From: Thalia democratica
Taxonomy: Eukaryota
Direction: 5' to 3'
DNA length: 64,000 bases
Assembly (NCBI GenBank): GCA_965202585.1
Contig: OZ241833.1
Coordinates: 32,302,001 to 32,366,000, forward strand
The position numbers were made by a program. This document shows, one piece after another, positions 30,001 through 36,000 of the stretch (the first letter of the stretch is position 1; each line of letters begins with the position of its first letter).

Positions 30001-33000
30001 CAGTCGAAACTTCTCACAACATTCGAAACTTTGTTTGTGCAGTTACCTAATTTTATGACAAGTCAATCTAGTTTTTTCGGGTTAGATATTATTGAGTTTA
30101 TACAACTTTAAAAACTTCTTTTTTTTTTGTAAAGCTTTTACTAAAAACTTAAACTCCTTTTGTTGAAAAAACTTTGAACACTTTTATTGTTTTACTTAAA
30201 AATTAGGAAAGACGAATTTTATCTAAAATTAATTAATTTGTCCGCTTGGTGTTGCTAGATAGCAGTCGTAACACATTTCTGCTTAATAACTATGTTTAAT
30301 TTACTATAAGTTGTTGTATTACTCAGCTTTATTTAATCAAATCCTTTTTTAAGTTAATTCAGTTCTTGAACTTCTCTCTGTGTTTCAAAGCTAATAAAAA
30401 CTTTTTTAGCAGCAATATTTTTTTATGAGAAAGCAGAAATTTGCATTTCGTTCGCTCACCACTCAACTTCACCAGAAGAACGCACGAAATTCTTTCAAAC
30501 TCAAAACCGTGATTAATGCGTCTTGCATTCAAATTGAACAGCGGCAACCGTCTTTCAACGCGAGTTCGAAAATTTTAATACGGGAGACCCGCGTACACAT
30601 GTTTTGTCATTGTTTTAGAACTCGCCCGCGTCTTTGGTTTCCTATCAAAATTCTTCTGCTGCTTTTTCTGCTTCTTGTTCGACATCAGCCTTTGTTGTCG
30701 GCGAGCTGACGACGAGCTAACAAGACAAATTTGTCAATCGTTTAAAAGTTGGTTTAGTTCTTTTTTGTTGTTTAAAAACTTTTGTGACTTGTAGAAGCTC
30801 AAGTCCAAGAACAGCGTTTGTCATGTTTTGAATGTTGTGTATGTTGTTAAAATTTAAAGCTATCATAATTGTTCTGCTTTGTAGCTGTATTTTCTTTTAA
30901 GTAAGTGCAAATAAATTAAATCATATGACTAACACACCTTTTAATAACTTTAATTAGTTTGTTTTTACGACTTAAAAGTTGGATTTTTCTTTTTTGTAAA
31001 TTGAACACATATTAGTAAATGGTAATAAACTTACTGCATTAAAATTAAGTTGATTCATGTTTTGATTTTGAATTATGTTTATGAGACGACAAAGTTATTT
31101 TTATTCAACTTAATGAAATATTTTCTGTTTCATAAAATGATGTGATTTCAAAAGTAACTTTTTTTAATCTTTATTCTTTTTATTTGACATGTTGGTTTTT
31201 GATTAAGATCAATATCAATATGAGTCAGCAGAGTCGTCATATTATCAAGATTAATTTTCGGTTTCCTTTTTAAAGGTTACAACTTTCTTTGAAAGCTTAA
31301 TAAGCTAATCGAGTGAAATTTAAAGCACACACAACGATTTTTTGACAGTTTTCATCAAGTTTTAAAGAAATTAAAATAATAAAAAAATGTAATTGTTTTC
31401 CATTTAATAAACTTGTAAGCATTATATTTGATTTAAAGTTTAATTTATATTAAATTTTTATTTTTTAAAGTATTTTTTAAAGTTCATTTTTAAGTATTTT
31501 AAAGTGTAATAAATATCACTATTAAATTTAAAAGGTTAAAAAGATAATAGAGTGAAGTTTAGAGTATAGACTGTTTTAATTAACAGTTTTCATTTCATTT
31601 CAAAGTAAAAGTATAAAAGATTGTTTTTGTGTTCTATATATTATTATTTAACAAAAATATACACTTGAGCTTTATTTAACGTTATACTTATGTTGTTTTT
31701 TAATGTTGTTTAAGTTTCACAATTTTTTTTAAATAATAAATATTTCAATTTAATTTGTTAATTTTTATATTTTGTTAAGTAAATCAGATTTGTTTATAAC
31801 TTTTAAGATAATATAATCAAGTTAAAACAAGTGTAAACAAACTTTATTTTGTTTTTTTTAAGCACATTATCTTTAATTGGTCATTAATTTTTTGATTGGC
31901 TTGGCACAAAGCCGTTTTCTATCTAATTAGCCTAATTTGTTGTTTTAAACAAACCAGTTTCCCTTCTTTAACGCTCCGTGCTTCACAAAAGGCAGCAAAA
32001 CTTAATCGGGTTAAAGCGAACTTTAAACGGATTTGGCTGAAGAGAATTAATCAGTTTTACGTAAGCGCTGCATAAAAACAACAAGTTCACGCTGAAACAC
32101 AAAACATAATAAACAAACGCGTTTTAAATGCAGAACATAATACATGTAAACAATAAGCTTTCATCAAGGCAGAGCTGCGTTTGAAACAAACCGAGAAAAG
32201 CAAGGCTCGATCAAAACGAACCTGCGTTTATTGTCAGAGCAAAAAGCAGTATGAAATCTTTAACGCGAAAGTTCATTGCGCGTTTGCAGACTTGTGCTTT
32301 CGGTTGGCAGGTCACAGCCGGAATTAAATTAGGATCGAGTTTCATTTCCCAACGGTGTCATTGCGCACAACTGGTTGTGTTTTCTCAATGAGCTTCTGTG
32401 TTCGGCACTGCAAATTGCCGACGCAATCAAAAAAGCTGTGCTCAGTCACCTGGAACGAATTGAGCTCGAAAGTCGGAAGTCGTTCGCGGTCGGATTGCGA
32501 GTCTGAACGAAAAGGTCGCCAAAGTTTTGCTCGTATCGGAATATAAAAAAACGGCCTCAAAATAAGCAATTCTCACCGCAAACGCTGCTGCTGCTGCTCA
32601 ACTTCAAGCCGTACTTTTTCCTTTCACCTCTTCTTGTATCGCGCAAATACCCATTGTGTTCCGTTTCTTGTGCTTCGAACTTTCTCAGCCGACTGTGCTT
32701 TGTGTTGGGTAGAAAAAAAAGCTGCTGCCTCTCGCGCTGCGAGAAACAGATCATTTGCAGCTTAGCCGGCTTACAGCAGCTTGCCAGCTTTTTGTTGCTT
32801 TTTTTTTGTTTTGAATTTTTTTATTCTTAGAAAGCGGTTGCGCTTTGTTTTGAAACACTTCTTGATTTCAGTGCACAGTGACTTTGTGCAGACTTCTTGT
32901 TCAGGGTGAAGCGGTTGCGATTAAAGTCTGAGCTTTTTTCCCGACACTTTCACCGCCCCTAGCTATAAAAGCAAAAAGAATTTGAGCGTGAGCGTTGCCA

Positions 33001-36000
33001 GCTATTCGCTCAGAGCTTTCAGCGAGGCAGCAACTTTAGAAAATCAGAACTTTTTTGTTTCGTTGTTTCGTTATCAGGTGTTGGTTGTGTTTAGAAATAA
33101 ACTACTTGTTAATTAAAGTTTTGCGTTAATTTGCTCAGGTGCTTTATTGTTTTTCAGACATTAATATTTTTTTCTTAATAAACAAATGAAACGAACAATG
33201 CTTCGCACGCCGACGCTTTTCCTTTTTCTGTGGTCGGCCCTGACGCTGCGTTCTGGTTTGGGGCAAGTCCCCCACGACGTGTCCCCGTTCGGCAACATCC
33301 ACCCGCTGTCGTTCGGCGAGGTGCACTGCGGCCCGGACATGTCGCTGTACCACAACAACCTCGAGGACAGGAAGGAGGTGCAGTACGGGTTCCAGGTGCC
33401 GCCCAGCGGACCCAGCATCAGGCAGAACAGGCAGTTGCCACGGCAACAGCAGAGCAGGAACCCATACAACAGGAGGAGGAGCAGGAGGGCCTCCCCTTGG
33501 GCGACAGGTCGGGTGCTTTTTGTAATAATTTTATCATAAGTTTTTTTTTATTAATAGCTCAATGCGCGTACGGGGTGTGCTTCAACGGGGGCAGGTGCAG
33601 GGATTCCACGACCCACATGTGCCAGTGCGCCCAGGGCTTCACTGGGAAGAGGTGCGAAAACGGTAAGGTTTTATGTATATAATTATGTACAAAAGGTTTG
33701 TTAAAATTTATTTATTTGTTTTATTTTTTATTTAATTTTATGTAAAGAATGCAGCATTTTCTGTAAGAATGTGCAGTGTATAATTAAATATGAGTCTTGA
33801 GAGTTTTAATATTTGTAACAATATAATAAAAATATTAACATTATGTTTATAACTAATATATTTCAGTTTTTCTTTTTCAATAAAGCTTTCTTAAAAATAA
33901 AAGTATTTCGAATTAGATCTTACAAGCAAAAAAAAACATACTTTATTTATAACTTAACGATTTCTTCAATGATGGAAATTTCAAAATTTTATGAAAACAA
34001 AACCAAATTCTGAACTTTCAAAGCTCACATATTCATTGCTTTGACACAAAAATTCCTGCTTCTTCGTATCTGCATTCCCATCAAAATATTTAGATGACGC
34101 GAGTTGAGATATTTCTTCGCAAAGAGGCAATTAGCACGACAGAATTCGACGTCCTTCTTTTGTTCGGCTGACGTTTTTGTTTGGAAGCCCGTGAAACCAC
34201 ACCTTGGAGCCATGTGAAAAAATTATTACCGAGTTTGTACGAGTATTGTTGTGCGCAAATGATAACGCAGCATTTTGTTTTGTAAAAGCACAACATTATA
34301 TGCGCTCATTGCTATAGTCTTTTAAGGTCATTGAAGCTTCTTTTTTATAAGTAAAGAAGTTCAAAATAGGTGTTGTTTGTCCATTTTAAGAAGCATTGCT
34401 GCAGAAGAATTTTATCACGTTTGTTTATCAAAACTCAGATTAATATTTTTTTAAGTAGACTTCAGTAAGGTTTACTTCAAATTAAGTAAAATTTAAACCA
34501 GAGATCAAAGGTTAACTTGAAATTCAAATAAATATTTTAATTGGCTGAGTACGTATGAATTGCCTTTTTAATAACCAATACAATATTTTCAAGGCCAAAT
34601 TTTGCCTTCAAAATAAAACAGTTTATTTTGGAAAAGTTTTAATTTTTACAGCTAAATTGTTCGTAAATTATCACAAGTTTTTTCATGAGTTTTTTTTTAG
34701 TTTTTTTAAACTTCTAAAAACTTGAAACGTACTGTTTTGGTTTACCCATTTTTTGAGCTACTTAACTTTAAAACTAGTTATCTTTTTATATAATATATGT
34801 ATAAAAAGTATATAATAAACGTTAAAACACACTTCTGTAGTTAAGTAATAGTTTTTTTATCAAGTATGGTTTAAGTGTAATGACAACCTAAAAAAGCAAC
34901 AGTTAACAAAAACAATTGAAATTTAAAAAAAAAACTAGCTGTTTTCGTTTTACATACTGTTACAACTAAAAAGATAGTTCAAAATTTCCAAACCTACTTT
35001 CAAACTATAAGTTAACTTTTAAAAGAACAATCAGGTATTAAGGTAAAACAAACAAGAAAATATTCGGAAAATGCGCACAAAAGCTCCACTGCATCTCCTC
35101 ATCTCTCACCCGTCAGTCCAATACACAGCAAAAATTTCAACAAAAACTTCAACGAGTGTTTTCTGCCCTTCATCGCTTAATCTCAACTTATCAGCCATCA
35201 AGTCCGTTTTATCGCTACGAATGAAAAAGCGAAACAAAAAGCGCCGTAAGCCTCAAAACGCACAACTTCAAAACACACTGTGCGCTGTTGTGTTGAGTGG
35301 GGCGGAGTTTAATCTGCAGATGAAACGTGAAACATTTCCACAATTTCGGTTAATTTCCACATCCGCTCCTGTGGATTAACTGCGAATTGGTTGATCTGCG
35401 ATATTGGAAAACGAGCTTTTAACTAGCGAGGAATGTTTAATGTACGAAATTGGTCAGCTTTGTGCTTCCCACCTATGTCATTTTTCTTTAAGTTTACAGG
35501 TAATCGATTTGCTTTGTTCCTCTTATTAGCTTCAAGTTCAGATTATTTAACCTCCGTTTACTGGGCTTTAGATTAACTGCAAGCAGATAGTTCTAATACA
35601 CTTATTGAACTATCATAAACGTTTGATAAACAAACTATAATATTTTAACTCAATTTTAGGCTTGTTATGAAGCTCAAAGTCTGTTTTCTCTTTTGAACTA
35701 TCTGCTTGAAGATTTTTAAGAAATCCAATGTTTAATTATAGTATAAGTTTCCAAGCAAAGAGATTGTAATTTCAGAGTGACCACCCTCTGTGTTGGTAAT
35801 GTGATTATTTCAATGTGGCTCGAGATTATCTCAAATTATTGGCTGAAGAGATTAGACCCCACAAGAAAGTGGTGCTCACTTGCTTGGCTTGTTTATAATT
35901 TCACAACTATTTGATGTCTTTGCCATCAAAGCTGTGTCAAACACTAAAGCTGACCGCACAACTAGTAATCTTCAACTGCCACAAAAAACTCGTTTAAATT

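What the first reader, a model, noticed from the sequence alone, without database searches (positions are those of the whole stretch)
32964..33662. Internal promoter and alternative first exon giving an EMI-less, furin-processed MEGF6 isoform
Seen: TATA box, ATG, a second signal peptide, and a GC3-rich pro-region of about 80 aa with one unpaired Cys (VHCGPDM) and a Gln/Arg-rich end with RRRSRR. A 50-nt intron then joins EGF exon 4 in frame. Established: R-X-X-R is the furin/proprotein convertase motif, and EMI domains mediate multimerisation or interactions. Inference: two secreted forms, EMI-EGF and propeptide-EGF, and the propeptide may be latent or independently active. I recall vertebrate MEGF6 also has an annotated alternative N-terminus lacking EMI (unverified), so this may be ancient or convergent.
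Basis: partly seen in the sequence, partly recalled or inferred. Interest (0 to 1): 0.65.

Follow-up and report, generated by a model that had tools for sequence, protein, structure and literature searches.

The report
Conserved alternative first exon, MEGF6-like gene
Inside an intron of a large multi-EGF matrix-protein gene sits a real, evolutionarily conserved second start exon that would replace the protein's EMI head by a short secreted pro-piece ending in a protease-cleavage site; it is a tidy but fairly ordinary case of one gene with two starts.

Summary
Observation confirmed. TATAAAAG (32964-32971), ATG 33186, a signal-peptide-like start, a 75-residue pro-region with one Cys and RRRSRR, donor at 33507|33508, a 50-nt AT-rich intron and a phase-matched EGF exon (33558-33662) are all present. 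The exon is real coding sequence: GC1/2/3 = 0.53/0.49/0.84 in a ~25% GC background, and 12 relatives exist in other assemblies. Their conservation stops exactly at W-x-T-G, which is the G|GT donor. The acceptor at 33558 is used by the EMI form in a relative's spliced protein (P0007). The 795 nt upstream hold no ATG, the largest gap in the window, and 0 of 2000 shuffles reach zero. This argues for a contiguous leader and an internal promoter. The start site may be an Inr+DPE pair at 32444 rather than the TATA box. A multibasic site is present in 13 of 13 sequences, but the canonical furin motif in only 5 of 13. No transcript joins exon 1' to the EGF exon, and the vertebrate parallel stayed unverified. 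The pro-region matches no Pfam, PDB or paper entry.

The parts
21197..21306 (+). First coding exon of the EMI form (signal peptide; leaves in phase 2, donor ACA|gtgagt)
   Evidence: Read; splice sites; same length as the 36 residues before the EMI domain in P0007. tblastn did not align this part.
24518..24658 (+). EMI domain exon a (GC3 = 1.0)
   Evidence: tblastn P0007 residues 37-83, 85% identity; GC3; splice sites.
27992..28101 (+). EMI domain exon b, leaves in phase 1
   Evidence: Pfam EMI 23.2 bits on the exon alone (cut-off 25); P0007 as a whole 28.9 bits; tblastn 81% identity; splice sites.
32391..33185 (+). ATG-free leader, putative 5'UTR of the proximal transcript
   Evidence: 0 ATG in 795 nt; the 798-nt gap is the largest in the window (next 488); dinucleotide shuffles give mean 7.0 and 0 of 2000 reach zero.
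32442..32475 (+). Candidate core promoter: Inr TCAGTC (A at 32444) plus DPE-type AGTCG at +28 to +32
   Evidence: 1 of 4 Inr+DPE pairs among 183 Inr matches on both strands of the window. The consensus patterns are recalled, not from a tool.
32964..32971 (+).
   Evidence: 3 such octamers on the + strand; 46 TATAAAA.
33186..33507 (+). Alternative first coding exon (exon 1'): signal peptide, pro-region, multibasic site, W-A-T, first base of a split codon
33186..33263 (+). Signal-peptide-like segment, residues 1-26 (a second Met at 33198 is where relative P0001 starts)
   Evidence: the cleavage point is inferred by eye.
33288..33344 (+). Conserved core motif, residues 35-53 (FGNIHPLSFGEVHCGPDMS) with the single Cys48 at 33327-33329
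   Evidence: 11 invariant columns in 13 sequences (G36 N37 H39 P40 L41 G44 E45 C48 G49 D51 S53).
33471..33488 (+). RRRSRR multibasic (proprotein-convertase type) site
   Evidence: a basic cluster before the Trp in 13 of 13; R-x-[KR]-R in 5 of 13.
33498..33507 (+). Invariant W-x-T plus the G of the G|GT donor
   Evidence: W105 and T107 invariant; Gly follows in 12 of 12 read-through relatives, with no conservation after it.
33508..33557 (+). 50-nt intron, GC 0.22
   Evidence: The exon-1' frame hits a stop inside it (ORF 33186..33539).
33558..33662 (+). Shared EGF exon (exon 4 of the EMI form), phase 1 in and out
   Evidence: Pfam EGF 32.4 bits; P0007 residues 121-157 align at 84% identity, and its Pro120 equals C+CT across the EMI-b junction.
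37568..47653 (+). Eight single-domain calcium-binding-type EGF exons (starts 37568, 39151, 41225, 42432, 44059, ~45994, 47060, 47531)
   Evidence: 8 of 8 hit FXa_inhibition/cEGF/EGF_CA; EGF_CA above cut-off in 5 of 8; phase 1-1 splice sites.
47900..48070 (+). Acidic non-EGF linker exon (approximate bounds)
   Evidence: Open frame with acidic residues; bounds not refined.
48465..63885 (+). At least 13 laminin/MEGF-type EGF exons; the gene runs off the window
   Evidence: EGF_laminin at or above its 21-bit cut-off in 6 of 12 exons tested, weaker in 3, other EGF families only in 2, and none in 1 (53699-53830). Exon 63757-63885 was not scanned.

Best explanation
The window holds a MEGF6-like extracellular-matrix gene on the + strand with two starts. 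A distal start (coding from 21197) gives signal peptide, EMI domain, EGF, eight calcium-binding-type EGFs, a linker and a long run of laminin-type EGFs. A proximal start inside intron 3 has its own promoter somewhere between about 32440 and 32995 and a long leader free of upstream ATGs. It gives exon 1' (33186-33507), which splices over a 50-nt intron onto the same EGF exon. The proximal product carries no EMI domain. In its place it has a signal peptide, a short strongly conserved motif with one free Cys, a variable spacer and a multibasic site 0-4 residues before an invariant W-x-T that abuts the first EGF. The most likely course is cleavage by a secretory-pathway proprotein convertase. That would leave an EMI-less EGF array starting a few residues before EGF-1 and release a pro-piece of about 75 residues. 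Shown: the coding nature and conservation of the exon, the conserved donor position, use of the acceptor, the ATG-free leader and conservation of the basic site. Inferred: transcription from an internal promoter, the exon 1'-to-EGF junction, the cleavage itself and the continuation into the long EGF array.
For: GC3 is 0.84 against GC1 0.53 and GC2 0.49, like the neighbouring exons at 0.58-1.0. phmmer against 1.84 billion representatives found 6 relatives, the best at 2.8e-50 and 89% identity. A profile search found 12, on contigs up to 2.5 Mb. There are 14 invariant columns, and conservation ends at W-x-T-G in 12 of 12. The residues after Gly are consistent with donor types used elsewhere in this gene (GTCAGT x3, GTTGGT, GTGGGA). 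P0007 shows EMI-b spliced to exactly this acceptor. The phases match. 795 nt are ATG-free, and 0 of 2000 shuffles reach zero. An Inr+DPE pair sits at the start of that stretch, and TATAAAAG lies 222 nt before the ATG. There is a basic cluster before W and one Cys in 13 of 13. The domain architecture was confirmed exon by exon.
Against: No transcript-derived sequence joins exon 1' to any downstream exon; all 12 relatives are unspliced ORF calls. A search among longer proteins (189-2000 aa) found nothing, though the tool itself calls that weak evidence. The donor CAG|gtcggg is weak: C at +3 occurs in 4 of 24 donors counting this one, and G at +4 in 3 of 24. All EGF exons are phase 1-1, so phase agreement does not single out exon 4 as the partner. 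The only transcript-type relative (P0007) reads through the donor after the EGF exon, so even the long EMI form is inferred here. The canonical furin motif is absent in 8 of 13. The minus-strand triplet CAT is also scarce in the leader (3 in 795 nt, with 32752-33159 free of it), so the depletion is not purely strand-specific. Whether the relatives' exons lie in MEGF6-like genes could not be checked.
Confidence: 0.6

Rival explanations
1. Short-product reading: transcripts from exon 1' (and from the EMI exons) end just after the shared EGF exon, by reading through its donor into the intron. Exon 1' would then make a small secreted precursor of about 150 residues whose cleavage frees a single EGF domain. 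It would not be a long matrix protein.
For: P0007 is a spliced 158-residue protein of a relative, from a 1408-nt contig. It runs signal peptide, EMI, EGF and then ...CENGKVC, which is a read-through of the donor after the EGF exon. In the window the same read-through gives GKVLCI and a stop at 33680-33682.
Against: One contig only, and it may be a partly spliced RNA. The EGF exon ends in phase 1 with a good donor (ACG|gtaagg), and the next exon supplies the Asp of the D-L-N-E-C start of a calcium-binding EGF. The short product is not exclusive of the long one.
Confidence: 0.2
2. Division of labour: exon 1' is the normal start of the long multi-EGF protein, while the EMI exons make only the short EMI-EGF protein. 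These would be two overlapping transcription units sharing one exon, not a main form with a minor variant.
For: The only transcript-type evidence for the EMI start stops after the EGF exon. The exon-1' motif is conserved in 12 other assemblies. The leader is strongly purged of ATGs, while the EMI start has an ATG 161 nt upstream.
Against: The architecture EMI + EGF + calcium-binding EGFs + laminin-type EGFs is what defines MEGF6; human MEGF6 is listed among EMI-domain matrix proteins with 27 EGFs (PMC11990869, passages read). No transcript evidence exists either way.
Confidence: 0.15
3. The donor at 33507 skips the adjacent EGF exon and joins a later phase-1 exon such as 37568.
For: Every EGF exon is phase 1-1, and a final G plus AT gives the Asp that starts a calcium-binding EGF. 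Fifty nt is near the lower size limit for introns (recalled).
Against: The acceptor at 33558 has a long T-run and is used in a relative. GC falls from 0.62 to 0.22 and rises to 0.63 exactly at the proposed bounds.
Confidence: 0.07
4. The basic cluster is not a cleavage site. The conserved motif and its Cys stay on the mature protein as a small N-terminal module, for example making an intermolecular disulfide that stands in for EMI-mediated multimerisation.
For: 8 of 13 lack Arg at P4. The core motif is the best-conserved part, with 11 invariant positions in 19, which is more than expected for a disposable spacer. There is exactly one Cys in 13 of 13.
Against: A run of 2-3 or more basic residues at a fixed place just before the first domain, in 13 of 13 and after a variable spacer of 43-65 residues, is the usual look of a convertase site (the rule is recalled).
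Confidence: 0.2
5. Chance open frame in a GC-rich promoter patch; not a coding exon.
For: Three other frames are open over the same patch. There is no Pfam, PDB or Atlas match.
Against: Codon periodicity and 12 relatives down to about 30% identity, with invariant residues and a conserved end.
Confidence: 0.02

Closest known systems
Vertebrate MEGF6 (multiple EGF-like domains protein 6)
   Same: A secreted protein with N-terminal EMI, then EGF, a cluster of calcium-binding EGFs and a long run of laminin-type EGFs. Human MEGF6 is listed as an EMI-domain matrix protein with 27 EGFs (PMC11990869, passages).
   Different: Orthology was not tested. The second start with the GN[IL]HPL..GE.HCG.D pro-region has no described counterpart that I could find. 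An acidic non-EGF linker exon lies between the two EGF blocks.
Draper / MEGF10 / MEGF11 / NimA group (EMI plus EGF receptors)
   Same: An EMI head followed by many laminin/MEGF-type EGFs, one domain per phase-1 exon.
   Different: Those proteins lack the block of eight calcium-binding EGFs and carry a transmembrane segment (recalled). The 3' end of this gene lies outside the window, so a membrane anchor could not be checked.
EGFL7 / EGFL8 (small secreted EMI-EGF proteins)
   Same: P0007, if complete, is a 158-residue signal peptide-EMI-EGF protein. EGFL7 and EGFL8 are listed among EMI-domain matrix proteins (PMC11990869, passages).
   Different: Here the short form would arise from read-through within a much larger gene. 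No sequence relation was tested.
Proprotein-convertase substrates with an N-terminal pro-piece before an EGF array (for example the N-terminal furin site of fibrillin-1; recalled)
   Same: Signal peptide, pro-piece and a multibasic site just ahead of the first Cys-rich domain.
   Different: There is no sequence similarity to anything solved (best PDB E-value 7.4, a ribosomal protein). Cleavage is untested.
Neuropeptide / prohormone precursors
   Same: Signal peptide, a short conserved peptide, a variable spacer and basic sites. Language-model look-alikes of P0009 are mostly such precursors (DH31, PDH, NPS, CCK, galanin).
   Different: All scores are 0.84-0.88, which the tool rates as leads only. 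No family match exists, and the exon ends in a splice donor rather than a stop.

Membership tests
MEGF6-like (by architecture) | N-terminal EMI domain | tested here: met
   EMI-b exon alone scores 23.2 bits (cut-off 25). The relative's spliced protein P0007, 81-85% identical over both EMI exons, scores 28.9 bits.
MEGF6-like (by architecture) | EGF followed by a cluster of calcium-binding EGFs | tested here: met
   EGF exon 32.4 bits. 8 of 8 following exons hit FXa_inhibition/cEGF, and EGF_CA is above its cut-off in 5 of 8.
MEGF6-like (by architecture) | Long run of laminin/MEGF-type EGFs | tested here: met
   Eight-Cys exons from 48.8 kb to 63.9 kb. EGF_laminin reaches its cut-off or above in 6 of 12 exons scanned.
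MEGF6-like (by architecture) | Secreted, with no transmembrane segment | not testable with these tools
   The gene runs off the window at 64000.
MEGF6 orthologue | Reciprocal best match or tree placement with vertebrate MEGF6 | not tested
No tool fetches a protein by name.
Alternative first exon with own promoter | Start codon and signal peptide in an exon that cannot be read in frame from the upstream exons | tested here: met
   Entry from EMI-b (phase 1) at acceptor 33157|33158 meets TGA at 33187-33189 (read). ATG 33186 opens the conserved frame.
Alternative first exon with own promoter | Transcription start upstream of the exon, inside the host intron | tested here: inconclusive
   Indirect only: the 795-nt ATG-free leader, Inr+DPE at 32444 and TATAAAAG at 32964. 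No expression data.
Alternative first exon with own promoter | Splice junction to the common exon | tested here: inconclusive
   The donor position is conserved in 12 of 12, the acceptor is used by the EMI form in a relative and the phases match. No junction-spanning sequence was found.
Furin / proprotein-convertase substrate | R-x-[KR]-R or a multibasic site accessible in the secretory pathway | tested here: met
   RSRR in the window. R-x-[KR]-R in 5 of 13 and RKR/RRR in the other 8. The region is predicted unstructured (pLDDT 49-57).
Furin / proprotein-convertase substrate | Cleavage actually occurs | not testable with these tools
   Needs protein data.
EMI domain (is the pro-region a degenerate EMI?) | Profile similarity to EMI | tested here: not met
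   hhalign of A2 against P0007 gives probability 0.5%. Pfam finds nothing in the window exon or in 4 relatives scanned.

The most novel reading that the evidence does not exclude
The pro-piece is not a throw-away leader but a product in its own right. A conserved secreted peptide of about 75 residues (core GN[IL]HPL.[FL]GE.[HQ]CG.D.S with a free Cys) would be made from the same transcript as a matrix protein and released by convertase cleavage. The proximal promoter would then deliver a signalling or binding peptide together with an EMI-less EGF array or, in the short read-through form, together with a single free EGF domain. The family would be an undescribed prohormone-like module.
Probability: 0.15. 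Interest if true: 0.6.

Novelty: new variant of a known kind. Interest (0 to 1): 0.38.

Why it matters
EMI domains are thought to mediate multimerisation and matrix anchoring. A conserved promoter switch that swaps EMI for a cleavable pro-piece would give the same EGF array two different assembly behaviours, and it would do so in more than one lineage. The pro-region is a compact, well-conserved motif with no entry in Pfam, PDB or the searched literature. It is therefore a small unannotated family that gene predictors may miss or truncate: every relative found was an unspliced ORF call. For annotation, the practical point is that this gene needs two first exons.

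Tried and rejected
1. Pfam on exon 1' and on 4 of the 12 relatives (P0003, P0005, P0009, P0012): no family at E <= 1.
2. PDB profile search with A2: only two ribosomal proteins at E about 7.5, taken as noise. This also gives no support to two likenesses I recalled for 'HCGPD': the metalloprotease cysteine switch and the Hedgehog N-terminal Cys-Gly-Pro. Neither family came back, and I wrote out no comparator.
3. ESM Atlas: no usable hit for the window exon. For P0009 there were only leads below 0.9.
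4. AlphaFold on A2: mean pLDDT 58.5 and pTM 0.22, with only the signal-peptide helix. I ran no fold search, because a low-confidence model gives meaningless matches.
5. hhalign against the EMI protein: probability 0.5%.
6. Search among longer proteins with exon 1': none.
7. Motif strings in papers: 0 papers.
8. Papers on an EMI-less or alternative-promoter MEGF6: nothing relevant. PMC12669014 (passages) only lists an exon-skipping event in human tumours, and PMC2827412 (passages) only an expression listing.
9. Rfam and tRNA scans of the whole window: nothing.
10. A second copy of the exon in the window: none; every relative maps only to 33186-33521.
11. A simple scan for the EMI-form signal peptide missed it because its hydrophobicity threshold was too strict. 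It was found by reading the GC-rich island.
The relatives' loci could therefore not be fetched and stayed unchecked.
14. Supplements of papers were not asked for.

Full report
SETTING. The window is an AT-rich animal genome. GC is 0.23-0.41 in 2-kb steps, and the 32001-34000 step is the richest. Exons stand out as short GC-rich islands, and the largest island is 33176-33675 (500 nt, GC 0.56). The window holds no N. I did not take it for human. I could not name the organism.

THE HOST GENE. Cys-rich open segments on the + strand, together with splice sites and phases, give this model:
- a signal-peptide exon, 21197-21306
- EMI-a, 24518-24658
- EMI-b, 27992-28101
- an EGF exon, 33558-33662
- eight calcium-binding-type EGF exons between 37568 and 47653
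- an acidic non-EGF linker near 47.9-48.07 kb
- at least 13 laminin/MEGF-type EGF exons up to 63885, after which the gene leaves the window

All EGF exons are phase 1-1 and hold one domain each. Pfam was run exon by exon and agrees:
- EGF scores 32.4 bits and EMI-b 23.2 bits, just under the cut-off of 25 for a half domain.
- 8 of 8 middle exons hit FXa_inhibition/cEGF, with EGF_CA above its cut-off in 5 of 8.
- EGF_laminin is at or above its cut-off in 6 of 12 later exons, and one exon has no hit.

This is the MEGF6 architecture. Human MEGF6 is listed as an EMI-domain matrix protein with 27 EGFs in PMC11990869 (passages read). Orthology was not tested.

THE OBSERVATION. All items are in place:
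- TATAAAAG at 32964-32971
- ATG at 33186
- a basic and then hydrophobic start
- VHCGPDM with the only Cys
- a Gln/Arg-rich end with RRRSRR at 33471-33488
- donor CAG|gtcggg after 33507
- a 50-nt intron of GC 0.22
- acceptor ttattaatag|CTC, with the exon starting at 33558

Exon 1' is 322 nt, so it leaves in phase 1, and the EGF exon enters in phase 1. The split codon G+CT reads Ala and is followed by QCAYGVC...

Three coding exons lie upstream, and the first of them carries the first signal peptide.

IS THE EXON REAL?
- The open frame itself proves little, because three other frames are open over the same patch.
- Codon periodicity does count. GC1/2/3 is 0.53/0.49/0.84, and 0.91 at third positions after the signal peptide. 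The neighbouring exons show 0.58-1.0, and the leader shows no periodicity.
- phmmer of the 107 residues against 1.84 billion representatives gave 6 hits at E <= 0.001. The best was 2.8e-50 at 89% identity.
- A profile of these hits found 12 proteins among 1790 candidates, on contigs from 1.2 kb to 2.5 Mb.

In the 13-sequence alignment, 14 columns are invariant: G36 N37 H39 P40 L41 G44 E45 C48 G49 D51 S53 R98 W105 T107. Every sequence has a hydrophobic N-terminus, exactly one Cys, a spacer of 43-65 residues and a basic cluster just before the Trp.

THE DONOR. All 12 relatives are unspliced ORF calls. Each reads W-x-T-G and then unrelated residues with early stops. The invariant Gly is what a G|GT donor gives when read through, so the exon ends at the same codon position in 12 of 12. 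The next residues (Q x4, R x2, Y x2, W, L, G, and a stop) fit donor types seen in this very gene: GTCAGT x3, GTTGGT, GTGGGA and GTTAGT. Over 24 donors the counts at +3 are A 10, G 7, C 4 and T 3. The window's own donor is on the weak side but within that range.

THE ACCEPTOR. Searching the EMI-a exon among longer proteins gave one hit, P0007 (5.1e-19, 85% identity, 158 aa, from a 1408-nt contig). It is a spliced product: signal peptide, EMI-a, EMI-b, Pro, QCAYGVCFNGGRC...RCEN. tblastn maps it to 24519-24659, 27972-28100 and 33560-33670. Its Pro120 is what C+CT gives across 28101^33558. The acceptor is therefore in use, and the EGF exon is common to the EMI form.

OWN PROMOTER?
- Entry from EMI-b into the strong acceptor at 33157|33158 meets TGA at 33187-33189 (read). 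The exon is therefore not an internal coding exon of the EMI form.
- The nearest ATG upstream of 33186 is at 32388. This 798-nt gap is the largest on the + strand of the window, and the next largest is 488.
- Dinucleotide-preserving shuffles of the 795 nt give a mean of 7.0 ATG, and 0 of 2000 reach zero.
- Caveat: CAT is scarce there as well (3), and 32752-33159 has none.

Such purging is what a translated leader shows, so the mature RNA probably contains this stretch. At its very start lies TCAGTC with AGTCG at +28 to +32. That is an Inr+DPE pair by recalled arthropod consensus, and 1 of 4 such pairs among 183 Inr matches in both strands. TATAAAAG at 32964 is 1 of 3 on the + strand.

PROCESSING. 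R-x-[KR]-R precedes the Trp in 5 of 13 sequences (the window and P0001-P0004). The other 8 have RKR or RRR directly before the Trp, without Arg at P4. 'Multibasic convertase site' is therefore the safer description than 'furin site'. AlphaFold with the 13-row alignment gives mean pLDDT 58.5 and only the signal-peptide helix. The pro-region would thus be exposed, which suits cleavage. That model is too poor for a fold search, so none was run.

WHAT THE PRO-REGION IS.
- It has no Pfam family.
- It has no solved relative.
- It shows no profile likeness to EMI (probability 0.5%).
- It has no Atlas relative. For P0009 there were only leads at 0.84-0.88, mostly neuropeptide precursors.
- No paper contains the motif strings.

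It is an unannotated short family.

AGAINST MY READING.
- No sequence spans exon 1' and a later exon. The search among longer proteins was empty, and the tool calls that weak evidence.
- Phase agreement cannot choose among phase 1-1 exons.
- P0007 reads through the donor after the EGF exon (...CENGKVC; in the window GKVLCI and a stop). A short product, or a division of labour between the two starts, therefore remains open.
The papers opened were irrelevant to it.

METHOD NOTE. The joined step (exon 1' plus the EGF exon as one query) was left out. What it would have tested, a junction-spanning relative, stays open.

VERDICT. This is a conserved alternative first exon, most likely with its own promoter. 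It replaces the EMI head of a MEGF6-like protein by a cleavable pro-piece that belongs to an undescribed motif family. It is a new variant of a known kind, of moderate interest.

Noticed in passing
window 33662-33682; protein P0007: The relative's spliced EMI-EGF protein ends ...CENGKVC, which is a read-through of the donor after the shared EGF exon. In the window the same read-through gives GKVLCI and a stop. This suggests a short secreted EMI-EGF isoform (intronic 3' end) or a partly spliced RNA.
   Followed up: partly
window 32391-33185 and 31703-32128: Besides the 798-nt ATG-free gap there is a second gap of 425 nt just upstream. Only 4 ATGs lie between 31703 and 33186, so the leader or promoter region may reach further 5' than either candidate start site.
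   Followed up: partly
window 33078-33157: A possible 80-nt intron inside the leader (CAG|gtgttg ... tttttcag|AC). It was read by eye only.
   Followed up: no
window 24518-24658: The EMI-a exon has G or C at all 46 third codon positions, although the flanking introns are about 25% GC. This is an extreme exon/intron contrast that runs through the whole gene (GC3 0.58-1.0).
   Followed up: partly
window 47900-48070: An acidic, Cys-free linker exon (...PEIHEKLEEEYEDASSDTSAS...) lies between the calcium-binding EGF block and the laminin-type EGF block.
   Followed up: no
window 16312-16717 and 12976-13200: GC-rich islands without a clear coding frame. 16312-16717 is free of ATG on the minus strand (405 nt). 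They may be untranslated exons or promoters of the distal form or of a neighbouring gene.
   Followed up: no
window 36456-36528: A 32-nt tandem repeat, 2.3 copies, 97% matches, in the intron after the shared EGF exon.
   Followed up: no
proteins P0005, P0006, P0008-P0013: A sub-group of 8 relatives shares a second conserved block (..LN[QK]HL[IV]YR[DN]..[FI]F[NH]R[KR]R-W) that the window's clade replaces by a Gln/Arg-rich stretch. The spacer is thus not free to vary in every lineage.
   Followed up: partly
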